Part shown: in pieces, positions 470 to 60,669 of the stretch | Numbering within the stretch: the first letter of the stretch is position 1 | Layout: the number at the start of each line of letters is the position of its first letter | Origin: Savitreella phatthalungensis | Lineage: Eukaryota | Reading direction: 5' to 3' | Length of the DNA: 64,000 nucleotides | Assembly (NCBI GenBank): GCA_051599415.1 | Contig: AP039708.1 | Coordinates: 186,001 to 250,000, forward strand | Made by a program: the position numbers and the translations under genes | The notes under the pieces: model-generated | What the model saw: only the letters and a program-made list of their open reading frames with translations | What the model was told of the DNA's origin: nothing | The model's database searches: none

Positions 470-1054
470 TCAGGTCAGGTCAACCTGCTTCTCGCTGGTG
501 AATCTGCGCTGGCGTTCCTCGCACTCCTTCACGAATACCCTCTGCGCCAGGAGAGCAAGGGCTCCTGCAACTGTCATCGCAAAAATCGCGGTGTAGATGC
601 GCGCCAAGGTGTCCTCACCGAATGCTGCCAGTGGCGCGTAGCAGGTCCGCTGTGAGATCGATCTACCCATATCATTACAGAACGCCGAAGGGACGAACGG
701 CTGCCAACAACACGATAACAGGTCCTGTACCAATGGTGAACCCTCCTCTCGGAAATACAGTGATAGCGGACGCAGCGACAGGAACCAGGCGTAGCTCCCA
801 AGTCCTATCTCGCAAGCGACCGAAAGGACTGTGATGATCGACACCACTCGTGTCAGTCGGACCGATCGCGTGAAGTATGCCGGAATCGATAAAAGCGCAG
901 CCACGAGAATGATAGCACCGACCACGAAGGAAAACCGCAAGTCTAGGGGCGCAATCCCGATCTTCAACCCAGCGTCCTTCGTTCCCAGGAGCAGTATTTC
1001 CCCTGCGATGTACGCTATCCCCGTCAAGGCAAACGGCGCGTGGACAAGAATCAT
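470..1054 (-). CDS. Pls1-like fungal tetraspanin (divergent)
   Basis: Several TM segments. GLGSYAWFLSLR, Q..LSCC..PFV...C....C..P...F....L..IYT and a C-terminal K..EE..R...EK pattern resemble Pls1 as I recall it. CCG is replaced by CCW. The 5' end is uncertain. Confidence 0.6.
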   Translation of the reverse strand: MILVHAPFALTGIAYIAGEILLLGTKDAGLKIGIAPLDLRFSFVVGAIILVAALLSIPAYFTRSVRLTRVVSIITVLSVACEIGLGSYAWFLSLRPLSLYFREEGSPLVQDLLSCCWQPFVPSAFCNDMGRSISQRTCYAPLAAFGEDTLARIYTAIFAMTVAGALALLAQRVFVKECEERQRRFTSEKQVDLT

Positions 1055-1218: not shown

Positions 1219-2685
1219 ATGTCGAGAACGGTGGCCGAGCATGGGGATCTGCGCAGCTATGGTCGGATCGTCTTGTTCGGCGACAGTATCACTGAGCAGG
1301 CCTGGAATATCGAGTGGGGAGGACACGCAATCCTGCTGTCCGATCAATTCAGTCGACGTCTAGACGTGATCAACCGTGGATTTTCTGGGTACACAACCCG
1401 ACAGGCGCTTGCCCTGCACCCGCGAATCTTTGGAGATGCTTATGACGACGATGTGAAGCTGATCGTCGTCTTCTTCGGCGCGAATGATGCAGCCCTGCCT
1501 GGAGCCTACCAGCATGTCCCCCTCGAAGAATATCTCGATAACCTAGGTAAGCTCCTGGCTTCACCACAGCTCAGGGGAAAGACGATCTGCGTCACACCAC
1601 CGCCGCTCGATGAGCACGGCTGGCCTGAAGATCGGACCGCTGCCCACACTGCAAAGTATGCGCGCGCAGCCAGGGCTCTGTGTGAGGATATGGGCGTCCC
1701 TTGCGCCGATGTGTGGGGGGAAATGATGCGCGAGGCGGATTATGATGGGTCAGGCGACTTCCCAGGAGATGTCCACCTCCCCAGGAACGCAGCCCTCCAA
1801 AATTTGCTCAGGGACGGCCTTCACCCGTCACCGGACGGCTACCGTCTCATCTACAACCTGATCGCGACCGTTATCAGGGATAGTTTCCCGGACGTCAATG
1901 ACGCCCCGAGGCCGACACCGCTCTGGAGGGACGCCATCGTCAACAACGGCGCGACTCTCGCCCAAATCGATACAAGAAAGTGGACGGACGAGGAAAACGA
2001 CCGGCTCAAGGGGCTCGTGGACGAGGACACCCTCGCAAAGGTCGGCAAATTCTACTTTGACAAAGACAGGAGGATGGCTCTGGGCTCAGCTTTGCTTCAG
2101 AGATGGTACATCTCTCAAATCCTCGGTGTCGAGTGGGCAAAGGTGGTGATCACCCGAGACGACAAGGGCCGACCGTCCTGTGCCTCTTTGGGTGTCGTTC
2201 CGCACGACTACAACGTGACGCACCACGGTGGGAAGGTCGTCCTGGCTGGAATTCGAGGAGAGACTGGTAACTTTCGGATTGGTGTTGATCTGACAGAATG
2301 CACTCTGGAAGACCGCGCAAATCCGCAAAAGCTCCTGGCGGACTTTCACGAGTACTTCACGGAGAAGGAGTGGGCCTGGATTGGTGGTGACGCAGGGAGA
2401 TTTTATGCTGCTTGGGCGCTGAAGGAGGCATATGTGAAATGGTCAGGCGATGGCATCGGTGTCGATCTCAAGGCGATCGAGAGTGAGGTCTCTGAGGATG
2501 GGACAGCCATCATCACGGGTGAACACAAGCTGAAAGCAGTGCTAATCAAGGAGGATGGCGACAAAGCGCACTACACGGCCGTCGCTGGCGAGAATTGGAT
2601 CGCCCAATTCACTCCCTCACTCCAAAGGACTTTGCATGCAGGGGACTTTTTCACGGCAGCCGCTCAAGCTCAGATCATCGATTAG
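1219..2685 (+). CDS. Fusion: IAH1-like SGNH/GDSL esterase + Sfp/Lys5-type 4'-phosphopantetheinyl transferase
   Basis: N-half has FGDSIT, NRGFSGY, FFGANDA and DGLHP. C-half has KGRP, YNVTHHG, IGVD and WALKEAYVK..G.G. One uninterrupted 488-aa ORF. Confidence 0.9.
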   Translation: MSRTVAEHGDLRSYGRIVLFGDSITEQAWNIEWGGHAILLSDQFSRRLDVINRGFSGYTTRQALALHPRIFGDAYDDDVKLIVVFFGANDAALPGAYQHVPLEEYLDNLGKLLASPQLRGKTICVTPPPLDEHGWPEDRTAAHTAKYARAARALCEDMGVPCADVWGEMMREADYDGSGDFPGDVHLPRNAALQNLLRDGLHPSPDGYRLIYNLIATVIRDSFPDVNDAPRPTPLWRDAIVNNGATLAQIDTRKWTDEENDRLKGLVDEDTLAKVGKFYFDKDRRMALGSALLQRWYISQILGVEWAKVVITRDDKGRPSCASLGVVPHDYNVTHHGGKVVLAGIRGETGNFRIGVDLTECTLEDRANPQKLLADFHEYFTEKEWAWIGGDAGRFYAAWALKEAYVKWSGDGIGVDLKAIESEVSEDGTAIITGEHKLKAVLIKEDGDKAHYTAVAGENWIAQFTPSLQRTLHAGDFFTAAAQAQIID

Positions 2686-2688
2686 TCA

Positions 2689-3981
2689 TTACCGCGTATC
2701 CACATGTTCGGCCGTGCGTTGCGCCTGGGCTACTCCTCTGTGCTTGGCGGCGCCGTGTGCTTCACGTACAGTGGCGAGAACTAGAACTCCAAAAGCAACG
2801 AGGATCATCGCGCCTCCTGCGATGGCTGCCAGCGAGAGCGGCTTGCCCGTGACGATCGTGTCGGTTATTGCGACGCAGAAGATCGACAACAGGGAGGCGA
2901 CACTCGACAACACAGGTCCCGTGAGGGAGATCATGCCCAGCAGGCATGCAGAGTAGACAAAGTTTGCTGCGATGCTGGCGATCAGGGCAAGTGCCGCGTT
3001 CGCAGGAGGCAGCTCGAACCGCTCCCATCCGAGCACATGCAGGATCGGTAACGGTATCCAGACAAAGGCGAGGGTGAAGACGCCAAGCGCGGTCGACATG
3101 ACGTTGGCAAAGAGGATGCTGCGCATGTGGTCGGTCGCGTCCTCTGGGCACGCCCACTTCTTGTAGAGTACCTCGTACAGTCCGTACAGGACGGCTCCGA
3201 CGGAGATGACGATGTTGCCGAGAGCTCTGGAGGTCGTGGCCTCGTCGTCGACCCTGTCGCCATAAGCGATCACGCCAACACCGCCAATCGCCACCAGCAC
3301 AGCAGCCACCTTGTCCCACCTCAGAGCCTCACCGAGTAACGGAACGGCAAAGGCGTACGCGAAGAACGCAGAAGCATTGTAGATTGCAGAAACATCAGAA
3401 GCAGTTGTCAAATTCACAGCCAAGTACCACGTCGCAGCCGCAATCGTCAGACAGAGTCCGAGTGCAGCAGTCACGAGTATCATGTGTGCGGGAGGTGGTC
3501 TCGGCGATGCAATCTCTGTCGCGGTCTCCCTGATGTCAGCGAGCGTTCGTTTGAGCAAAGTAGCAGGAGTCGTCCGCCGGTTCGTCAGCCGGAGGTAGCA
3601 CCACATCCCTACGCCGTTCAGCCACCAGGACGAATGTGTCACGTACAACATGAAGAACGGCTTCTCGTAGTGGAGATCGCGCTGGATGTACTGCGCCAGT
3701 TCTGTCTGGATCGTGAAGCACACGAGCGATACAGGCAATGCCAGCCCGATCGACCACACCAGCGCCCTGCGAGCGTGTCTAGCGGCATCGGCCGCATATC
3801 TCGCACCGGAGATCTGGGTCGGGTCCAACCTGTCCACCCCATCTCCGTCATCATCCTCTTCATCGCTAGCAGCCTTATCAGCAGTCGCAAACGAAGAGAA
3901 CGACTGCGTCCGGCCACGAGAAGAATCCCCAAGTGACGACTCGCCCCGTTCCAGGAGTGGCGTCCTGCTCGCCGTCCTCAT
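2689..3981 (-). CDS. DMT/EamA-superfamily (SLC35F-like) membrane transporter
   Basis: About 10 hydrophobic helices, with YEKPFFMLYVTHSSW and YGLYEVLYKK motifs. First ATG at 3981. Confidence 0.8.
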   Translation of the reverse strand: MRTASRTPLLERGESSLGDSSRGRTQSFSSFATADKAASDEEDDDGDGVDRLDPTQISGARYAADAARHARRALVWSIGLALPVSLVCFTIQTELAQYIQRDLHYEKPFFMLYVTHSSWWLNGVGMWCYLRLTNRRTTPATLLKRTLADIRETATEIASPRPPPAHMILVTAALGLCLTIAAATWYLAVNLTTASDVSAIYNASAFFAYAFAVPLLGEALRWDKVAAVLVAIGGVGVIAYGDRVDDEATTSRALGNIVISVGAVLYGLYEVLYKKWACPEDATDHMRSILFANVMSTALGVFTLAFVWIPLPILHVLGWERFELPPANAALALIASIAANFVYSACLLGMISLTGPVLSSVASLLSIFCVAITDTIVTGKPLSLAAIAGGAMILVAFGVLVLATVREAHGAAKHRGVAQAQRTAEHVDTR

Positions 3982-4160: not shown

Positions 4161-4700
4161 ATGTTGTCAATCGGGCAGCTCGATAGGGCTGACGGCAGTG
4201 CTAGGTGGGAGTCGTCATCGGGCGTGGTGGTCCTGTGTTCTTGCAATGGTCCGCTAACGGTCGGTGTCAGGGATGAGAAGCTCGGGGAGAGTCATCTGGA
4301 AGTGCGGATGCAGCCAGGGAAGGGTGTTGGCGGTCCTGGAGAACGTGATCTGGAGAAGCTGGTAGATGGGAGTCTGCGAGGTTCGCTCATGCTGTCACTC
4401 CACCCGCGAACACTTTTGCAGATCACAATCCAGGTGATGGCAGGAACCAACAGGCTCGAAATCTGTGCAGCTGCGATCAATGCGGCAGTCGCAGCAGTCG
4501 CGGACGCGGGATTCCCGATGCGCACACTCGTCGCGGCACACGCAGAAAAAGACTCGCTGTGCGTTTACACGTCAGATGGAGAGCTCGTGACGGTGGTGTG
4601 TGAGGGAGAGGCAAGGACAGACAAGGAAGCGTGTGAGAAAGTCATGATGGAGATTCGGGCGTGTCTGGAAGGAAAAGTACAGAATTTATGGGGTCCATAG
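4161..4700 (+). CDS. RRP46: Exosome RNase PH-like subunit Rrp46
   Basis: LDRADGSA, NGP, HPRTLLQITIQV and AAINAA...DAG.PM motifs. Confidence 0.85.
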   Translation: MLSIGQLDRADGSARWESSSGVVVLCSCNGPLTVGVRDEKLGESHLEVRMQPGKGVGGPGERDLEKLVDGSLRGSLMLSLHPRTLLQITIQVMAGTNRLEICAAAINAAVAAVADAGFPMRTLVAAHAEKDSLCVYTSDGELVTVVCEGEARTDKEACEKVMMEIRACLEGKVQNLWGP

Positions 4701-10246: not shown

Positions 10247-10541
10247 CATTTCTTTTACAACCTTCTACGTACTAATCTATCCTACTTAATGTGCCACCGG
10301 ACTCTACGTCCTCGTATCCTGATATCCACTCACTGCCAGCCGACGATCATGATCCTTCGTCATGGTCTTTTGACCCTGGTATTCGTAATACGAATTCTGA
10401 CCAAGGCAGGCAAAATGAGGCGGGACGATGCAAGGCAAGACGTGCGGTGAACATATCTCATGGTGTCTCTATGTTTCAGAAAGTCCCGAGTTGCTCAAAA
10501 ACATCATCACACGAGCTGACACCCACCTACCGGCTTCGACG

Positions 10542-11432
10542 ATGATTGTGGGCCGTGTCTCTGTGCGGCTTGCGCTCTGTGTGTGGGTGCTCACTGCCAC
10601 AGCTGTCAACCGACCTTGTCGAGTGCACGACCTGATTGCCAGGCAACTGCTCGCGCCGCAATCTTCCAACATCACAATCTCACAGGTCACCCCGACCTCT
10701 ACCCCATCCACATCAGAAACTTCACCGACCACCTCCTCCACCACCACACCCACGCCCACCCCAACCTCGACCATCACGACACCATCCACCACCACCACCA
10801 CCACCACCACCACGATCACCACGCCGCCGTCATCACCGACCCCGGTCTCAACATCAGACGCCGTACCGACGGAGATTCCTGTGATCAACACATCTCTACA
10901 ACCGACCGAGGTTGCTACGGATCCGACCTCGATGGCTACGGCGACGTTTGGTGTGAGCACTAGTGTTGGTGTGGTGCCTGTGACGGCGACGGGGTCCGAT
11001 TTGGAGACTCTAGTGACGGCGCCGGAGCCACGCTCGTCCATCACACCATCGCCTACGCCGGCACCGACGCAACAGCAGCAGCAGGCTACCTCACCGGCAT
11101 CCCTACCAACACAGGTACCGGCAGACTCACCCACCCCCGAAGAATCGATTCCGAGTACACCATCGGTATCAGCAACCGTCGCAACGACGGCAGATGTCAC
11201 GGACCCCGTGAGCGAGGTCGTCCCAGCATCGGCAAGGACGTCGACGGTGGTGGTGGTTGTGGGTGATGGTGGCGGTGGCGCTGGAGTGACGATGACTAGC
11301 GATGTGGTGGTGTGGGAGGCTGGTGCGACTGATGTTGTGAGTGGTGGTAGTGTGACTGCGTCGCTGCAGTCTGGTGGTGTCAGGGTTGGGATCGGTTGGT
11401 GGTTGTGGGTGATGGTCGGGGTGAATGGATAA
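10542..11432 (+). CDS. Secreted Ser/Thr-rich, probably cell-surface/GPI-type protein
   Basis: N-terminal hydrophobic signal, mucin-like Thr/Ser/Pro body and hydrophobic C-terminus. Confidence 0.65.
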   Translation: MIVGRVSVRLALCVWVLTATAVNRPCRVHDLIARQLLAPQSSNITISQVTPTSTPSTSETSPTTSSTTTPTPTPTSTITTPSTTTTTTTTTITTPPSSPTPVSTSDAVPTEIPVINTSLQPTEVATDPTSMATATFGVSTSVGVVPVTATGSDLETLVTAPEPRSSITPSPTPAPTQQQQQATSPASLPTQVPADSPTPEESIPSTPSVSATVATTADVTDPVSEVVPASARTSTVVVVVGDGGGGAGVTMTSDVVVWEAGATDVVSGGSVTASLQSGGVRVGIGWWLWVMVGVNG

Positions 11433-29524: not shown

Positions 29525-30211
29525 ATGCCGCCCACAATCTCCTCGCCAACCGATTTCCGTCACGTCTCGCACAACCTGGTAGATGCCATCATGCTGGCAA
29601 GCGCCGGCACAGGAGCAGGAACAGATTCCCTGAGCCTTGCTGTAGCTCCTGCCCCCGTTCCTGCTCCTCCTCCAAACGAGCAACCAATAAAACAGTCCTC
29701 CGGCAAGCGGAATCGGAGGTCCATCTGGCGACTATTCGCTCCTGGCAGGAAGCCACGGAAACAGGAGCCAGAATCCGACGGATCGACCATCTCTGAATCT
29801 GACGCACGCGCATGCCACGACGACGGCAAGTGGGACACCTGTAGCCTGTCAACAGCCGCAAGCCGATCGACCGTGGATCTGACGACGCCGATTCGACCAC
29901 CGCTGCGTCACGGCCGGAGTGCAATGACCATCAGATCGGAGAGCGCTTCCCCGAATTGCTTGAGCCTGTCGAGTTCCAGCTCGACTTCCTCGTCCTCGTC
30001 ACCGTCTCCAGCATCCGTCAACAAACCCACATCGTTCTACCTGCAACACGGCAGGCAGGTCCACTCGACCACCGTCCTCGTGGGCCGGGAGCGTCTTGCA
30101 GGTCGCCACCTGCGGGAGACGGCAGGACGAATTTCCGCCGTGTGGCTCGGAACAGCCGGGGAGACCCGACCTGCTGGACACCTCGCGACCATGCCACTAC
30201 CCCTCCCTTGA
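29525..30211 (+). CDS. Small CRIB/PBD-motif protein (putative Cdc42/Rac effector)
   Basis: N-terminal ISSPTDFRHVSH fits the CRIB consensus I-S-x-P-x(2-4)-F-x-H-x-x-H. The rest is low-complexity. Confidence 0.65.
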   Translation: MPPTISSPTDFRHVSHNLVDAIMLASAGTGAGTDSLSLAVAPAPVPAPPPNEQPIKQSSGKRNRRSIWRLFAPGRKPRKQEPESDGSTISESDARACHDDGKWDTCSLSTAASRSTVDLTTPIRPPLRHGRSAMTIRSESASPNCLSLSSSSSTSSSSSPSPASVNKPTSFYLQHGRQVHSTTVLVGRERLAGRHLRETAGRISAVWLGTAGETRPAGHLATMPLPLP

Positions 30212-37778: not shown

Positions 37779-38813
37779 TCAGAGTGCGAGCGATAGCTTG
37801 CTCGAGAGGGTGTCAATCGGCTCGGGCGTTGAGCGACGAAGGAGGCCGAGTTCGAGCACCGAGCGAGCCTTTCTACGTCGACGAGCTGCAAAGTTGATCA
37901 GGTCATCCACGTGTGAGGACTGTGCGGCTGCAGCGACGAGCTCGTCCACAGGAGGTGGTCCACGCGGCTGTCTTTGCGGATGACCATCCTTCGGCGGCGT
38001 GCTCGTCCGGAGAGCAAATGACGAGCCAACGCTGCTAGCGACAGACGCCTGCGACCCCTGCTTCTCCATCGGTGCAAACGATATCGATGGCTTTCTCCTC
38101 CGATCCGTGGAATCTGGTGTCGCGAGACCCGTGGAACTAGCAACACGGGAGCCGTGCTTCGATGTGGACGTGGGCGTTTTGACGGACGCAGATGCGGATG
38201 CGGCGTACATCATCTGCTGCTGCAACTGCCAGTGGAGCACCTGCTCCTGCGTGGCCTGGCTGAATGTGGGGACGCCGGACGCGTCGTAGGTCGCCTGCAC
38301 GTACCTACAGGAGTTTGTGTCATAGAAGAGCTGCGTATTTTGCGTATTCACGATCGTGGTCGAGATCGGACTCGCCTCGGGAGTGTAAGGAGGTGTACCC
38401 ATTGACGCGTACATCTGAGCGCTGTGTTGCTGCTGCTGCTGCTGCTGGTGCTGCATCAACATCTGCTGCTTCGCCAACAGCATGTTCTGCATGATCAGTT
38501 GCTGCTTCTGCTGCTCGAGTGCAGCAATGTCGGCCACAGACGGCGTCCGTGCATGCGTGCGCGACGTGCTCCGCTGCTGACGTGCTCCGCCAGCGGCAGG
38601 CGCGTCCCCAGGCACAAAGTTGGATGTCCTTGGTGTGGTTCGAATCCGATCAAGCAGCTGTGAGCGTGGTGACTTGACTTCCTCGCCAGGTGCCGCTCCC
38701 GCAGCTTTCACATTCAGGTGTGCGGGGATAGCGGCGAGAGCCTCTGCAGGCTTCAGCTGGACTGATCCTCGTGAGAGACCGCGCGAATGAGTGCGCCTGC
38801 GCGTGTCTGTCAT
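37779..38813 (-). CDS. Gln/Ser-rich protein with C-terminal RQPRGPP..EL...NFA.RRR motif
   Basis: Long ORF with polyQ. The C-terminal motif resembles conserved uncharacterised fungal proteins as I recall them. Confidence 0.7.
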   Translation of the reverse strand: MTDTRRRTHSRGLSRGSVQLKPAEALAAIPAHLNVKAAGAAPGEEVKSPRSQLLDRIRTTPRTSNFVPGDAPAAGGARQQRSTSRTHARTPSVADIAALEQQKQQLIMQNMLLAKQQMLMQHQQQQQQQHSAQMYASMGTPPYTPEASPISTTIVNTQNTQLFYDTNSCRYVQATYDASGVPTFSQATQEQVLHWQLQQQMMYAASASASVKTPTSTSKHGSRVASSTGLATPDSTDRRRKPSISFAPMEKQGSQASVASSVGSSFALRTSTPPKDGHPQRQPRGPPPVDELVAAAAQSSHVDDLINFAARRRRKARSVLELGLLRRSTPEPIDTLSSKLSLAL

Positions 38814-47188: not shown

Positions 47189-48208
47189 TTACCCCACAGG
47201 CTTGGCCACGAATTTGTACATACCGAGGACACTGGATGTCAGTGCGCAGATGGTGACAAAATCCCGGATCCCGTACTCTGCCGGGGTCGCCCTACTCGCG
47301 AGCTTGTCCGTAGCCTGTGCACCTAGCTCAAATACATCGCACGCTGCCTGGACCATGTCGCAGCAGATCTTGAGTCCGTCAATGTCGTGCCAGAACTCTG
47401 CCTGGACGAGGGCCTGGTCCCTGCGGGTGGCCTCCCTGTGGGACAGCAACGCATTCATCCGTCGCCTCCGCGCCATCACACGCTTCTCGCCTAGCCAGTC
47501 ATCCAGCTCCAGGACGAGCGACGCGAGCCAGCAGCGGTCAGCGTACACACCGAATCCTTTAAGCCACTCGGGCAAGTACCCTAGCTGCGCGAGCGTGTAC
47601 AGATCCTCCGACAGATCCTCTCCCACAGATAACGTCTTCTCCAGTAGCCAGCGCGCACGCTGCAGGCGTGTCGGCTTCGCGAGAAGGTGTTCCGAGTGGA
47701 CGAGATCCGGGTCCTGGTTGATTGCCCCGCGCTTTGATGACTTAGGGGAATGGTTGCTAGTCTTCTCGTCGTCAGAGTCAGCGCGCTGAGCCGCAAGCAG
47801 ATCCGGGAAAGTGTGATCGCGCGGCATGACCTTGGTCAGGCGCTCGAGGGTTGTGGACAGTCGGGATCGTGCTCGGTTGTGGCCGCCGCCGCGAGGGGAC
47901 GAGGGTCCTGCGATCCGTGATTCACGCAGAGCCAGGAGCTGATCGATCCCAGCGACGATGATCGCCTTTGCAGGCTTGTAGGCGTTTCCGAGGCTCAAGA
48001 CGCGCTTCTGAAGAGAGCATTGCAGGGCTAGCTGCGTCAACAACGCCTTCTGAGCAGCTGAGAGTGAGAGCACTTGCGAGATCACATAAAGCTCCCGCGT
48101 CACCGGCACAGTGCGAGGTGTCGCGAGCAACAGGACGAATCGCGCGGTGTACTGGATCAGCTTTAACGCCCGCCAACGGCCGATGGCCGTGGTGAGGACG
48201 CGCTCCAT
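47189..48208 (-). CDS. Pex11-family peroxisomal membrane protein (Pex11/25-like)
   Basis: N-terminal GR..LKLIQY..R, ADRCWL, K..CD and L.SS.LG.YK patterns. Confidence 0.65.
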   Translation of the reverse strand: MERVLTTAIGRWRALKLIQYTARFVLLLATPRTVPVTRELYVISQVLSLSAAQKALLTQLALQCSLQKRVLSLGNAYKPAKAIIVAGIDQLLALRESRIAGPSSPRGGGHNRARSRLSTTLERLTKVMPRDHTFPDLLAAQRADSDDEKTSNHSPKSSKRGAINQDPDLVHSEHLLAKPTRLQRARWLLEKTLSVGEDLSEDLYTLAQLGYLPEWLKGFGVYADRCWLASLVLELDDWLGEKRVMARRRRMNALLSHREATRRDQALVQAEFWHDIDGLKICCDMVQAACDVFELGAQATDKLASRATPAEYGIRDFVTICALTSSVLGMYKFVAKPVG

Positions 48209-51102: not shown

Positions 51103-51762
51103 ATGGAGTCAGCACTAGGTAGAAGGGGAGATCAGAGGCCTGACCTGTCTCTTGAGCTGGTAGCGCCAGAATTGGTGACTGACTGTGGATCAGGCTCAAC
51201 TTATGTCTCTGCACCGCCTTCCACAGGTGCGTTCGATTTTGTCTGGCATTCCGTCGACCTAGTTCTACAGGAGCGGCTTATGCTCATGAGAGCGATCTCT
51301 AGAGCGACAAATAGACAGCTCAAACTCGACGTTCACTCAGTGCTCGTGCTCGGAGAGGAAATTCCGGGACTGCCATGGCAGATCGACGAGGCGTGCGACC
51401 TCGCGATAGCGGACTCGCTCCAGCAACTGTCCCTGCATTTCCCTGGAAAGGCTCCGGCGTGTGTCGTCGATCGTAATATTCTAATCGACATTGCCAATGG
51501 AAAGGCTTTCCCAGTCAAGCTCGTCCACCGTCTGGTGGTCACGAAAGACGGTACGAAGACAACTGAGTTAGGGCCTCTCATATTGACTGGCACCATCATC
51601 ACTGACAGTGGTGAGCTGCACGGTCAGGAAGTCCGCGTCAAGGCAATACACGCAGGCCTGCTTGTATGGACTGCAGATCAAGCAATCATCACAACAAGAG
51701 CATCCACAGATAACTGCATAATGTCTTCCGGTCACCCAATCCCTCTCATGTATGCAGAATAG
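51103..51762 (+). CDS. Hypothetical protein (~219 aa)
   Basis: ATG at 51103. The ORF fills the gap and ends 36 nt from the convergent HAD gene. No motif recognised. Confidence 0.45.
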   Translation: MESALGRRGDQRPDLSLELVAPELVTDCGSGSTYVSAPPSTGAFDFVWHSVDLVLQERLMLMRAISRATNRQLKLDVHSVLVLGEEIPGLPWQIDEACDLAIADSLQQLSLHFPGKAPACVVDRNILIDIANGKAFPVKLVHRLVVTKDGTKTTELGPLILTGTIITDSGELHGQEVRVKAIHAGLLVWTADQAIITTRASTDNCIMSSGHPIPLMYAE

Positions 51763-55120: not shown

Positions 55121-56218
55121 CTATCTGATGGATTCAGCGATCACGATCGCGCCTCGCATGTCTGTTCCGCAGACGTGTCTGTTTAGTCCTTCGTTGAAAG
55201 CAAACGTCTGGCCGCCGGAGATCGTGATTGGCAACATTCGGGCGCCTCCAACCCCAGAAATGAGAGAGCTTGAGAGGCTGGGAGGGCTGGCAGCGGTTGC
55301 GCCCGGTATCAAGCTCGGGTCAATTCCTGCAGGACTGAGAGTCCCGACGAGCCCCGAGAAGGAAGTTCGGAGCACCGCTTCAACTTTTGTCCTGACCTTG
55401 TCCTCTTCATCCTTTGCGTCTGTCGTCCTCTCACGATTGGCGCTGAGCTGCGACTGAGCGATTGCAAGGGGCGAGTACCCGAACGGCAAGCCGTTGTTGA
55501 AAGTCGGCGTCACTCGGCTCTGCTGGATGGCGGCGATAGCCTGCAATCGCTGCATGTCGTCCATGACAACGCTGCAGAGCACCCTCCCATCAGCCACGCT
55601 CAGCTTGAGCGGGTCTGAAATGGGGAATACTGTACCGCCACGCACCACGGTCAGACGAGGCGAAGCAGAAAGACCCGAAGAAACGGACGACAAAAGAGAC
55701 TGTCCTGCGCCAAGAATTTGGCCCCCGAGAGCACTTGCGAGTGCAGACAATCCACGCGGCAGGAGGTCGCGAAGCGCGCTCAGCCCGCTGAAAGCGCTTT
55801 GTGACGGCAGCATGAAGCCGGTACGCGGTGCAGACGTCGTTGCTGGCTGTAAGATTGGCGTCGTACTCGCCTGTCCGACGTTCGAGCTCGGACTCGCACT
55901 CGGGCCCAGGATCGAGACCATGTTTGGACTGGAATTTGCAGGTGTACCCGAACTCGGATTCGGGGAAGTACTTGCCTGGAGGATGCTTTGTATCTGGGGA
56001 TCCGTATCCTGCCTAGCGATGGCGCTGGCAGCAGCGAGAATCGCAGGATCGCTTCCGATAGAGCCAGATTGCGCAGGGTTGGCCGGAATCTGCGAGCCAG
56101 CTGGCGCAGCGATGATCGGTACCTGCGGGCGGAACCCATTGTTGTAGCCAGACTCGATCGATGGTCCGAAGGATTGCGCCCTCGCCACCACGACGCTGAC
56201 CAGCAGCGCGAGCAACAT
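55121..56218 (-). CDS. Secreted Ser/Pro-rich hypothetical protein
   Basis: Signal peptide MLLALLVSVVVARA and a 365-aa ORF. Confidence 0.65.
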   Translation of the reverse strand: MLLALLVSVVVARAQSFGPSIESGYNNGFRPQVPIIAAPAGSQIPANPAQSGSIGSDPAILAAASAIARQDTDPQIQSILQASTSPNPSSGTPANSSPNMVSILGPSASPSSNVGQASTTPILQPATTSAPRTGFMLPSQSAFSGLSALRDLLPRGLSALASALGGQILGAGQSLLSSVSSGLSASPRLTVVRGGTVFPISDPLKLSVADGRVLCSVVMDDMQRLQAIAAIQQSRVTPTFNNGLPFGYSPLAIAQSQLSANRERTTDAKDEEDKVRTKVEAVLRTSFSGLVGTLSPAGIDPSLIPGATAASPPSLSSSLISGVGGARMLPITISGGQTFAFNEGLNRHVCGTDMRGAIVIAESIR

Positions 56219-58719: not shown

Positions 58720-59893
58720 ATGTCCGAGGACGACGACTACTTTGGCGAGGACGATGAGGAAGGTTGGCTCGCCCTCGAAGGTAGGTACACTCCCGTGGGC
58801 AAGGCAGCGGCTGACGACAGACCTGCTGCGCAGGCATAGAGGAACGTTGTCACGCGATGATGTCCAACAACTCGATCAAACACGCGCGTCCCTCGGCAAG
58901 GCTCCCTTTGAGCGATTCCGGCGGCAAGATAGACTCAGCGTGACAGATGTCGTGTCCCCGCTCTGGTGTGAGGCGCAATTCCAGTACGCGCTTGAGGCCA
59001 CCGGCCGTAGACGACGCACCGAGGCCATGAAAGTCGGCTCAAGGATCCACGACGAGCTCGAGCGCGAAATCCACCTGCCAGTCGTCATCGAGCGGAGCGA
59101 GGAGATCGAGGAGGAAAGATGGGGACTGATCCTCTTGAATGGTATCATCCGCTGCGACGAGCTCCTAAGGACGGGCGTGACGCGCGAACTTTCCGTCTGG
59201 GGACGCGTACGCGGCACGCGCGTCACAGGCAAGATTGATGAGCTCCGCATCGTGGCAGACGAGTCGCAGGAGCGCAACGCAATGCAGGCCTTCCTTGGAC
59301 TACCACGCGGACTTCTTGTCCTGAGTGACACGAAAACGCGGGGCAGCTCAAGACCACCCACGGAGTCTGCACACTTGCAGGCGAAGCTGCAGCTCATGCT
59401 GTATCGCAGCCTGCTGGCCGGCATGCGGGATGAAGGCGTGACTCGGGCCAAAGAGGAAGGCCTCGATGTCGGCAGACCATTCACTGACGCATTCATTGCA
59501 CAGGCCATGGCGCTGCTGTCACCGGATGATGCAGACAAGGTGCCTTCCCACAACAGTATCGAGGGATTCTGGCAGCTATTCGAAGTGCATCTGCGACCGT
59601 TATGCGAGATGCTACGGCGTCAGGACGGGCAGGAAGACCTGTCCGTGACGTACCTTCAGCAGTTGACGCGGGAGACTCTCTTCCAGCATAGTTTCTCATT
59701 TGATCGCGCGTGGATGGATGAGCGCGCGGACAGCGTCATGGCATGGTGGCACGGCACACGGCAGGCTCAGGGCGTTCGTCAAGAGGAGGCCTATAAGTGT
59801 TCAATGTGTGACTTTGAGGCAGGCTGCTCATGGCGGTTACACAAGGTGGAAGAGGCCGCCCAACGTTATCGTACTCGTAGATCAGCATCATAA
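58720..59893 (+). CDS. EXO5: Exonuclease V (Exo5/Dem1); intron 58781-58820
   Basis: Exon 1 MSEDDDYFGEDDEEGWLALE, then a 40-nt GTAGGT..GCTGAC..CAG intron. LSVTD....WCE.Q, G..IH..LE, RE..V.G, G.IDEL, DTKTR, QLMLY and C..C.F...C.W (Fe-S cysteines). Confidence 0.88.
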
Positions 59894-60015
59894 TGTACTG
59901 TATACTGTATGGGGAAATATATACCAACGTGTACACACACACGCTAAGCAACCGCATTGACGTAGACGCATATGTACTCGTGAAAGCGCACGTCAATCCA
60001 GCACGTCATAGAAGC

Positions 60016-60669
60016 ATGGTGGCCCAGGCCTACACAAGTGACCTGCAGCGCGTCTGGCGCCTGGTTCAGGACCTGTCCATTCAGCTGGAGACGAACCAAG
60101 AAGAGACTGAGCGGCTGCGCCGTCTTGTCGAGGCACTAGATACTCCTTCAGGGAGCGATGACAAAGACCTGAAGACCGACCACGATCGCCTATTGAAGGA
60201 CAATTTGATCCTGCTGGAGGCAGAGGCAGAGCTCTCGAGCCTGTGTGCGGATCAGGAGCGCGCACTCGAGCGAATTACCGCCCAGATCAGAGAGTACCGG
60301 CACAAGCAGGTCCAGGATGAGCTGCAGCTTCGCAAGGAGCACGCATCACAGATCGCAGAGATGCAGCAACGCGTGACTGCTGCAGAAAATGACAAACTGC
60401 AGATGCAGGCGAGCGTACATCATCTCGGTGAGATGCTACGCCAGTGCTACGCGACAATGGCCGATGACATGGAGGCGACCGAGATCGAGAACGTTCGGCT
60501 GACGAACGAGGTAGCAGCGCTCAAGCAGGAGCTTGGTCTGTCGTCCGATGCAGAGTTGACGGGGCCAGACGAGGACGAACAGGACAGGATCATAGCCGAG
60601 GCAGAGGGCAGGACGATCCAGGTGATGCCGAAGCTGCCAGCCAGAAGAGCAGCACGAAGGCAGGGCTGA
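60016..60669 (+). CDS. Coiled-coil protein, possibly a Far3/SIKE-like STRIPAK subunit
   Basis: N-terminal L.R.W.LV.DLS.QL..N and heptad-rich body. Confidence 0.55.
   Translation: MVAQAYTSDLQRVWRLVQDLSIQLETNQEETERLRRLVEALDTPSGSDDKDLKTDHDRLLKDNLILLEAEAELSSLCADQERALERITAQIREYRHKQVQDELQLRKEHASQIAEMQQRVTAAENDKLQMQASVHHLGEMLRQCYATMADDMEATEIENVRLTNEVAALKQELGLSSDAELTGPDEDEQDRIIAEAEGRTIQVMPKLPARRAARRQG

What the first reader, a model, noticed from the sequence alone, without database searches (positions are those of the whole stretch)
1219..2685. IAH1-type SGNH esterase fused in frame to a Lys5/Sfp-type PPTase
Seen: a complete esterase (GDS, G, GAND, DGLH; ending P.W.D near 1930) runs without a stop into a complete PPTase. 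There is no Met between the esterase interior and a position already inside the PPTase fold, so independent initiation is unlikely. Established: IAH1 and LYS5 are separate genes in model yeasts, and Sfp-type PPTases can mis-prime carrier domains using acyl-CoA, which type II thioesterases repair. Inference: the acetyl-esterase domain may be a built-in editor for Lys2/NRPS/PKS priming, or the fusion may be a by-product of genome compaction.
Basis: partly seen in the sequence, partly recalled or inferred. Interest (0 to 1): 0.72.

Follow-up and report, generated by a model that had tools for sequence, protein, structure and literature searches.

The report
Taphrinales esterase–phosphopantetheinyl transferase chimeric gene
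In a group of plant-dwelling yeasts (Taphrina and relatives), the enzyme that switches on lysine and peptide synthetases is joined end to end with an acetate-ester-splitting enzyme in one conserved gene, most likely one of several unrelated enzyme pairs fused in these compact genomes rather than a built-in proofreader.

Summary
The fusion is real. Window 1219-2685 (+) is one 488-aa frame: an IAH1-type SGNH esterase joined, with almost no spacer, to a Lys5/AASDHPPT-type PPTase. It is the genome's only IAH1-type and only Sfp-type gene found. Ten other protein clusters share the architecture at 41-50% identity, including Taphrina deformans. They form one clade, and the catalytic residues of both halves are invariant in 11 of 11. 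So it is an old Taphrinales trait, not an assembly error or a quirk of one genome. I found no paper on it. The editor idea has no direct support: there is one origin only, no second fusion elsewhere, and an ordinary IAH1 active site. The same genome holds three other fusions of unrelated enzymes: SGNH–His6 (conserved in 10 clusters), Ade8 inserted inside Lys2, and GT8–glutaredoxin. Best reading (0.6): a fixed chimera of two independently working single-copy enzymes, like Spe3–Lys9 in basidiomycetes. Editing or acyl-CoA clearing stays possible (0.2). No RNA or protein evidence was available. Novelty: new variant of a known kind; interest 0.45.

The parts
1219..2685 (+). Single ORF, 488 aa: IAH1-type SGNH esterase fused to the genome's only Lys5/Sfp-type PPTase
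   Evidence: 10 homologous fused clusters
1258..1935 (+). SGNH esterase domain (aa 14-239), IAH1 family
   Evidence: PF13472 aa 19-210; 3MIL aa 14-246; Foldseek 3mil E 5.7e-16
1285..1287 (+). Catalytic Ser23 (GDS, block I); G54 (1378-1380) and N89 (1483-1485) complete the oxyanion-hole positions (role from SGNH family knowledge)
   Evidence: invariant in 11 of 11 fused sequences
1813..1824 (+). D199-G-L-H202, catalytic Asp/His of the esterase
   Evidence: invariant in 11 of 11; D199 in 180 of 180 and H202 in 169 of 180 unfused relatives
1924..1974 (+). Junction W236-T252: from the conserved IAH1 C-terminal Trp to the first conserved PPTase residue; 17 aa here, 19 aa in the other 10; no stop, ATG, intron motif or poly(A) hexamer
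   Evidence: pLDDT below 50 at aa 232-243
1954..2682 (+). Sfp/Lys5 (AASDHPPT)-type 4'-phosphopantetheinyl transferase (aa 246-488)
   Evidence: PF22624 + PF01648; 2cg5/2byd; Atlas neighbours of the T. deformans half are PPTase clusters
2281..2289 (+). G355-V-D357 motif (Mg-binding Asp by homology to AASDHPPT; role recalled)
   Evidence: G355 and D357 invariant in 11 of 11; aligned to the human GxD motif
2413..2439 (+). W399-A-L-K402-E403-A-Y-V-K407 PPTase catalytic motif
   Evidence: W399, A400, K402, E403, K407 invariant in 11 of 11; aligned to human WALKESFIK
470..1054 (-). Divergent upstream ORF (194 aa, weak tetraspanin-like membrane protein); 164 bp between the two ATGs
   Evidence: (E 0.02, under cut-off)
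2689..3981 (-). Convergent EamA-type transporter ORF whose stop lies 3 bp from the fusion's stop (shows genome compaction)

Best explanation
One gene makes one cytosolic two-enzyme polypeptide. The C-terminal half is the cell's Lys5: it transfers 4'-phosphopantetheine from CoA to the carrier Ser of Lys2 and of the other A-T-R and NRPS proteins. The N-terminal half is the cell's Iah1, a short-chain (acetate) ester hydrolase. The two sites most likely work independently. The chimera arose once, in an ancestor of Savitreella, Taphrina and probably Protomyces, when two small co-oriented genes in a compact, intron-poor genome were joined by loss of the stop, the spacer and the second start. It persists because each half is single-copy and useful, and splitting them again would need a new promoter and start. 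Shown: the frame, single-copy status, conserved catalytic residues, one clade, other unrelated fusions in the same genome. Inferred: both activities, a full-length protein, independence of the sites, and the deletion route.
For: Single copy of each half: 1 of 3 ACPS matches is Sfp-type, the others being AcpS-type and the FAS2 C-terminus; 1 of 3 SGNH matches is IAH1-type. One origin: the 11 fused esterase domains plus the Protomyces partial form one clade, FastTree support 1.0, 35 sequences. No second origin: a PPTase profile hit 14 of 268 fetched proteins, all in this clade, and 0 of 80 metagenome IAH1 loci. The esterase keeps the generic IAH1 site: S23, G54, N89, D199, H202 are shared with 96-100% of 180 unfused relatives that have a residue at the position. 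The same genome has other fusions of unrelated enzymes: SGNH-His6, intact in 10 clusters; Ade8/PurN inserted in Lys2; GT8-glutaredoxin, 1 of 122 blind-sampled ORFs. His6 carries yet other partners elsewhere: GST in 16, phosphatase/6PF2K in 7 and JAB in 3 of 120 listed rows. Intergenic gaps near the gene are 164, 3, 179, -15 and 202 bp. AF2 folds two confident domains with a low-confidence junction (pTM 0.51; Atlas model of the T. deformans protein pTM 0.53). Precedents: SpdsSr (PMC10051792, abstract) and Aco2-L21 (bioRxiv 10.1101/2019.12.16.879015, whole text).
Against: The junction length is almost fixed (19 aa in 10 of 11, 17 in the query) across proteins only 40-57% alike, which suggests a structural constraint rather than a loose tether. 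The esterase half is more conserved than the PPTase core in 55 of 55 pairs (57% vs 49%), which is notable for a gene of minor known role in yeast aroma metabolism. A few esterase residues are clade-specific: P203 beside the catalytic His is in 11 of 11 fused vs 3% of unfused, C155 11 of 11 vs 1%, T233 10 of 11 vs 1%. No relative with the two genes adjacent but separate was found, so the deletion route is not shown. Both cited precedents argue for some link between their partners (co-expression; contact with the mitoribosome). Low pTM from an 11-sequence alignment is weak evidence on domain packing.
Confidence: 0.6

Rival explanations
1. Coupled editor. The PPTase sometimes loads acetyl- or acyl-pantetheine from acyl-CoA and blocks the carrier. 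The tethered SGNH domain hydrolyses the acyl-S-Ppant thioester, or clears acetyl-CoA to CoA beside the PPTase site, standing in for a type II thioesterase.
For: Mispriming by acyl-CoA and repair by TEII are established (PMC4147253, passages). No PF00975 thioesterase reaches the cut-off in the genome (best 24.4 bits vs 26.4, an alpha/beta hydrolase), although 5 cytosolic carrier-bearing proteins exist. Fixed short junction, strong conservation of the esterase and clade-specific residues near the His. Some SGNH enzymes, such as E. coli TesA, hydrolyse acyl-CoA thioesters (recalled, no call).
Against: Known editors have the alpha/beta-hydrolase fold, not SGNH. The Iah1 activities in the passages I read are on oxygen esters (PMC6524682). 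There is one origin, and no SGNH-PPTase fusion or neighbourhood was seen in 80 metagenome loci, in 57 prokaryote loci (no bacterial positive control) or in 16 long IAH1-like proteins. The other cytosolic SGNH of this genome is fused to His6, where editing makes no sense. Fungi with far more NRPS/PKS keep the two genes apart (recalled; unfused IAH1 rows from Pezizomycotina).
Confidence: 0.2
2. Fused gene, separate products: internal polyadenylation, splicing, a non-ATG start or proteolysis yields a free esterase and/or a free PPTase, as in S. pombe Aco2-L21.
For: Precedent in the same subphylum. Three homologues have a Met at the start of the PPTase half (P0005, P0008, P0011). The junction is low-confidence in the model. 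The Protomyces lactucae-debilis record ends exactly at the junction Trp, though it is flagged 'partial'.
Against: No AATAAA-type hexamer except one AAGAAA at 1974, no TAY codon at aa 222-261, and a GC-rich junction. No intron candidate in the ORF under a permissive pattern that gave 120 hits across the window. 8 of 11 homologues have no Met there. The closest relative of the Protomyces partial (P0004, 69% identical) reads through into a full PPTase.
Confidence: 0.1
3. Non-catalytic partnership: the esterase acts as a folding, dimerisation or expression carrier for a low-abundance PPTase, so the fusion is selected without any shared chemistry.
For: Butt-joined domains with a fixed junction. The yeast Iah1 entry holds two chains and is recalled to be a dimer. 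Both cytosolic SGNH domains of the genome sit N-terminal to an amino-acid biosynthesis enzyme.
Against: The catalytic residues of the esterase are invariant, which a pure carrier would not need. Stand-alone Lys5 proteins fold without a partner (PDB 2byd).
Confidence: 0.1

Closest known systems
S. cerevisiae Iah1 (isoamyl acetate-hydrolysing esterase, PDB 3MIL)
   Same: Best solved match by sequence (E 8.3e-22, aa 14-246) and among the top fold matches; full S-G-N-D-H set; ends at the W-x-D motif.
   Different: Carries a PPTase where Iah1 ends; DGLHP rather than DGLH[L/F]; substrate untested.
Lys5 / human AASDHPPT (Sfp-type PPTase, PDB 2BYD, 2CG5)
   Same: PF22624 + PF01648; GxD and WxxKExxxK motifs; only Sfp-type gene in a genome that has Lys2.
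   Different: No start of its own; preceded by a 240-aa esterase. The T. deformans record is named only 'GDSL Lipase/Acylhydrolase family protein'.
Spermidine synthase-saccharopine reductase chimera (SpdsSr; Spe3-Lys9 is the recalled name) of basidiomycetes
   Same: Lineage-wide fusion of two single-copy enzymes from different pathways, one of them in lysine synthesis; one transcript (PMC10051792, abstract).
   Different: Different partners and lineage; its transcript is shown, which is not so here.
Aco2-L21 of Schizosaccharomyces
   Same: Fusion of 'curious partners' in Taphrinomycotina.
   Different: It has a variable linker with a conserved AATAAA and a TAY cleavage site that yields a short form; this gene has a fixed short junction and no such signal.
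Type II (editing) thioesterases of NRPS/PKS clusters
   Same: Proposed role in the rival reading: removing acyl groups from misprimed carriers.
   Different: Alpha/beta-hydrolase fold, not SGNH. No PPTase-fused editor appeared in my search; one search listed one paper, on a TEII domain inside a PKS (listing only).

Membership tests
IAH1-type SGNH hydrolase | SGNH blocks: GDS Ser, block II Gly, block III Asn, DxxH | tested here: met
   S23, G54, N89, D199, H202 invariant in 11 of 11; PF13472 90 bits vs cut-off 32.9
IAH1-type SGNH hydrolase | Closest to Iah1 by sequence and fold, nested among fungal IAH1-like proteins | tested here: met
   3MIL best PDB sequence hit and best esterase fold hit; tree (deep nodes weakly supported)
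IAH1-type SGNH hydrolase | Hydrolyses acetate esters | not testable with these tools
   needs an assay
Sfp/Lys5 (AASDHPPT)-type PPTase | AASDHPPT_N + ACPS in one chain, with GxD and WxxKExxxK motifs | tested here: met
Sfp/Lys5 (AASDHPPT)-type PPTase | A Lys2 client is present and no other Sfp-type enzyme is | tested here: met
   Lys2 (TIGR03443, 1851 bits vs 1030); only 1 of 2 PF22624 matches over cut-off; searches score best candidates only
Sfp/Lys5 (AASDHPPT)-type PPTase | Transfers Ppant to a carrier Ser; complements lys5 | not testable with these tools
   needs an assay
Type II editing thioesterase (TE18) | Alpha/beta-hydrolase fold / PF00975 | tested here: not met
   No PF00975 hit on the protein; fold matches are SGNH; definition from PMC4147253. 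This rules out membership, not an editor-like role.
Type II editing thioesterase (TE18) | Hydrolyses acyl-S-Ppant on carrier domains | not testable with these tools
   needs an assay
Type II editing thioesterase (TE18) | Encoded in an NRPS/PKS cluster | tested here: not met
   No carrier-domain gene in the window; clients lie on contigs C4, C6, C8, C21, C24
Lineage-fixed chimera of unrelated housekeeping enzymes (SpdsSr / Aco2-L21 kind) | Same fusion across a clade, unfused outside it, both active sites intact | tested here: met
   other Taphrinomycotina (Saitoella, Neolecta, Schizosaccharomyces, Pneumocystis) did not appear by name, so the clade's edge is not fixed
Lineage-fixed chimera of unrelated housekeeping enzymes (SpdsSr / Aco2-L21 kind) | One transcript and a full-length protein | not testable with these tools
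   no RNA run was available to lay

The most novel reading that the evidence does not exclude
The IAH1 half is a proofreading or acyl-CoA-clearing module hard-wired to the PPTase: the first SGNH-fold carrier-protein editor, and a clue to the obscure cellular role of IAH1 in eukaryotes. It would be part of a Taphrinales-specific rewiring of amino-acid and purine synthesis into chimeras (Iah1-Lys5, Lys2 with Ade8 inside its adenylation domain, SGNH-His6), with both the lysine reductase and its activator now fused enzymes.
Probability: 0.2. Interest if true: 0.8.

Novelty: new variant of a known kind. Interest (0 to 1): 0.45.

Why it matters
(1) It finds the hidden Lys5/Ppt1 of Taphrinales. The T. 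deformans protein is named only as a GDSL lipase and the Protomyces model stops at the junction, so the enzyme that activates lysine and NRPS synthesis in these plant-associated fungi is mis-annotated. (2) It is a shared derived character for Taphrinales phylogeny. (3) It gives a clean test of whether an IAH1 esterase acts on CoA or pantetheine thioesters; a positive result would be a new editing chemistry and would bear on IAH1 function generally. (4) With SGNH-His6, Lys2::Ade8 and GT8-glutaredoxin, it points to an undescribed set of chimeras of unrelated enzymes in this order, a natural system for asking whether such fusions are selected or merely locked in.

Tried and rejected
Assembly or frameshift artefact: rejected, because 10 other clusters from four source collections share the frame. 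Hidden intron or two merged genes: no intron candidate in the ORF, and no insertion in the query relative to homologues. Pseudogenised esterase: rejected; 9 of 11 listed strain differences in the ORF are synonymous and 2 conservative, though from contigs of depth 2-3. Expression: no RNA holder listed; no evidence either way. The runs with small shares (X4-X6) were not used for habitat. Complex prediction of esterase vs PPTase half: no verdict, score 0.00, alignments not used; not evidence. Search for stand-alone relatives of the PPTase half: none of 2101 candidates scored, so no PPTase tree was made. Metagenome scan: 80 loci, none fused, none with a PPTase nearby; the best, L007, is an unfused IAH1 among unrelated genes. 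Prokaryote scan: 0 of 57 loci had a PPTase hit (profile built from the fused clade, no bacterial positive control). Atlas: no cluster with both families among the rows shown; only clusters of 50 or more members are searched. My recollection that formyltransferase-containing Lys2 had been described by Bushley and Turgeon was wrong: 'formyl' has 0 hits and the paper says all AARs are A-T-R. Earlier scan notes: nothing in 3 look-ups. Conservation of Lys2::Ade8 and GT8-glutaredoxin in relatives was not tested.

Full report
OBSERVATION. Window 1219-2685 (+) is one 488-aa frame from ATG to TAG. Pfam gives Lipase_GDSL_2 at aa 19-210 (E 3.4e-25), AASDHPPT_N at 264-344 (4.1e-15) and ACPS at 353-439 (2e-11), all over cut-off. 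The best solved relatives are yeast Iah1 (3MIL, aa 14-246, E 8.3e-22) and human AASDHPPT (aa 271-426, E 4e-15), then Sfp. Foldseek on the AlphaFold model returns the same two families at ranks 1-7. Iah1 aligns to aa 246 and the model's first PPTase strand starts at 246, so the domains are butt-joined with almost no spacer. In-frame ATGs are at aa 1, 158, 169, 170 and 286 only; a permissive splice pattern found no candidate in the ORF against 120 in the whole window. No canonical poly(A) hexamer or TAY codon lies at the junction. A contig of run X1 spans the stretch with no difference but may be the source; contigs of X3-X5 do not bridge the junction. Of 11 listed differences in the ORF from X3 and X5, 9 are synonymous and 2 conservative; these contigs have depth 2-3, and two further differing letters were not listed by the tool.

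ORGANISM AND COPY NUMBER. G000 is 12.7 Mb in 27 contigs. Two of its proteins are identical to NCBI records named Savitreella phatthalungensis, order Taphrinales. Genes near the fusion are 164, 3, 179, -15 and 202 bp apart. Of 3 ACPS matches, one is a 156-aa AcpS-type protein, one ends the 1833-aa FAS2 frame, and one is this gene; only this gene passes the PF22624 cut-off (1 of 2). Of 3 SGNH matches, one is this gene, one looks like a secreted acetylesterase (my reading of its N-terminus) and one is fused to His6. These searches score best candidates only, so the counts are lower bounds. Carrier clients: 11 PP-binding domains in 6 frames. They are Lys2, three other A-T-R proteins, a 5366-aa frame with six T domains (siderophore-type NRPS by inference, not scanned) and a short frame taken as mitochondrial ACP. 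No PKS-type ketosynthase was found among 4 matches.

CONSERVATION. Of 120 listed hits (187 passed among 7999 candidates scored), 11 carry both domain sets: the query and 10 other 90% clusters of 484-540 aa, 41-50% identical to the query. One is Taphrina deformans CCG82439.1, named only 'GDSL Lipase/Acylhydrolase family protein'; one JGI record is named with both activities. The next hit in the unfiltered search (best 150 of 5004 listed) is a Protomyces lactucae-debilis protein flagged 'partial' that stops at the junction Trp; its closest relative P0004 (69% identical) is fused. That Protomyces has the fusion is therefore likely but inferred. All catalytic positions of both halves are invariant in 11 of 11: S23, G54, N89, D199, H202; N332, H335, H336, G355, D357, W399, K402, E403, K407. 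Mean pairwise identity is 57% in the esterase and 49% in the PPTase core, the esterase higher in 55 of 55 pairs; the W236-T252 junction is 19 aa in 10 sequences and 17 in the query; 3 of 11 have a Met at the PPTase start. A tree of 35 esterase domains (233 columns; 4 chosen rows dropped for short domain coverage) puts the 11 fused domains and the Protomyces partial in one clade with support 1.0, sister to an unfused gene (L007, 0.87); deeper nodes are weak. A PPTase profile hit 14 of 268 fetched proteins, all in this clade, and 0 of 80 metagenome IAH1 loci. None of 16 other long IAH1-like proteins has a PPTase; 0 of 57 prokaryote SGNH loci has one nearby (no bacterial positive control). Weakly similar bacterial SGNH-Sfp fusions would fall below these lists and are not excluded.

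CONTEXT: OTHER CHIMERAS. (a) SGNH-His6 on contig C10 has both halves intact in 10 clusters. (b) Lys2 on C8 (1553 aa, TIGR03443 1851 bits) has a complete PurN/Ade8 formyltransferase (TIGR00639, 189 bits vs cut-off 150; aa 734-935) inserted late in its adenylation domain, before the T domain. The other two PF00551 matches read as PurU and Fmt1 (names from recall), so this appears to be the only Ade8. Bushley and Turgeon state that all AARs are A-T-R (PMC2823734, passages); PMC8779187 has 0 hits for 'formyl'. (c) In a blind sample of 122 ORFs of 330 aa or more from 400 kb, 1 was a clear odd pair, GT8 + glutaredoxin. This was judged by eye at E 1e-10, with 16 rescanned at 1e-3, so it is a lower bound; 0 of 34 other window ORFs showed one. 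So odd chimeras are uncommon (about 1%) but recurrent here. His6 is also joined to GST (16 rows), a phosphatase/6PF2K (7) or JAB (3) among 120 listed rows from other fungi (automatic gene calls).

HOW IT MOST LIKELY WORKS (0.6). One polypeptide serves as both Lys5 and Iah1. The PPTase half primes Lys2 and the other carriers from CoA; the esterase half hydrolyses short acetate esters, as yeast Iah1 does (PMC6524682, passages); the sites act independently. The fusion arose once by deletion between co-oriented neighbours in a compact ancestor and is locked in because both halves are single-copy. The model has two confident domains and a low-confidence junction (pLDDT below 50 at 232-243, pTM 0.51; pTM 0.53 for the T. 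deformans model), which is weak support from a shallow alignment. Against this reading stand the near-fixed junction, the strong conservation of the esterase, and clade-specific residues near its catalytic His (P203 11 of 11 vs 3% of 180 unfused; C155; T233). Rival 1 (0.2), the editor: mispriming and TEII repair are established (PMC4147253, passages), the genome has no PF00975 protein over cut-off, and some SGNH enzymes are thioesterases (recalled). But editors are alpha/beta hydrolases, there is no second origin, and the sister case SGNH-His6 has no such logic. Rival 2 (0.1): separate products from one gene, as in Aco2-L21; no signal for it was found. Rival 3 (0.1): the esterase as a folding, dimerisation or expression carrier.

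COMPARISON AND NOVELTY. Each half passes the sequence tests for its family; the protein fails membership of type II thioesterases on fold, which does not rule out editor-like action. As a type of object it matches lineage-fixed chimeras of unrelated enzymes: SpdsSr of basidiomycetes (PMC10051792, abstract and outline only) and Aco2-L21 of Schizosaccharomyces (bioRxiv 10.1101/2019.12.16.879015, whole text). Not in print as far as searched: 0 papers for 'phosphopantetheinyl transferase' + 'IAH1'; 0 for 'gene fusion' + 'fungi' + 'GDSL' + 'phosphopantetheinyl'; none of the 20 listed of 53 papers contains 'phosphopantetheinyl'; three Taphrina genome papers (PMC3648899, PMC4007546, PMC7036362; term searches of the main text) do not mention such a fusion. 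Their supplements, and most subscription journals, were not seen; a genome-scale fungal fusion catalogue (Leonard and Richards 2012, recalled) was not checked. The architecture does stand in public annotation.

VERDICT. A real, intact, order-wide chimera that appears undescribed; mechanism most likely uncoupled; editor role open and cheap to test. New variant of a known kind; interest 0.45, or 0.8 if the editor reading (probability 0.2) holds. The Ade8 insertion in Lys2 deserves its own follow-up.

Noticed in passing
G000:C8, L100:1957-6615 (-), P0389: Lys2 (alpha-aminoadipate reductase, 1553 aa) with a complete Ade8/PurN GAR formyltransferase (aa 734-935, over the TIGR00639 cut-off) inserted in frame inside the adenylation domain, before the T domain; apparently the genome's only Ade8. 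Not seen in two papers checked. Conservation in relatives untested. Possibly more surprising than the main finding.
   Followed up: partly
G000:C10, L005:1387-2916 (+), P0269-P0278: A second, unrelated SGNH hydrolase fused N-terminally to His6; catalytic motifs of both intact in 10 clusters.
   Followed up: partly
G000:C2, L114:4782-6029 (+), P0390: GT8 glycosyltransferase with an N-terminal membrane anchor, fused to a C-terminal CPYC glutaredoxin.
   Followed up: partly
rows P0288/P0306/P0319, P0296/P0314, P0324/P0343/P0348, P0342: His6 is fused to different unrelated partners in other fungi: GST in smut fungi, 6PF2K/His-phosphatase, JAB in Mortierellaceae, Rft1 in Bifiguratus (automatic annotations).
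   Followed up: no
P0121 (Protomyces lactucae-debilis ORY87675.1) and P0003 (T. deformans CCG82439.1): Public models miss the PPTase: one is truncated at the junction, the other is named only as a GDSL lipase.
   Followed up: partly
window 2685-2689 and 4686-4700: Extreme compaction: convergent stops 3 bp apart; the RNase PH (exosome-type) ORF and the sugar transporter ORF overlap by 15 bp.
   Followed up: no
G000:C4 ~549-562 kb; C6 L099:2449-6285; C21 L101:2309-5152; C24 L102:2376-6173: PPTase clients: a 5366-aa frame with six T domains, an A-T-R-R protein and two A-T-R reductases; no PKS found.
   Followed up: partly
window 10428-11429, 29525-30208, 37782-38813, 47192-48208, 51103-51759, 55124-56218, 59893-60666: Seven ORFs of 200 aa or more with no Pfam family at E 1e-5.
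   Followed up: no
L141:4387-6150 (G000:C9): DDE_1 endonuclease (pogo/CENP-B-like) ORF in the sampled region.
   Followed up: no
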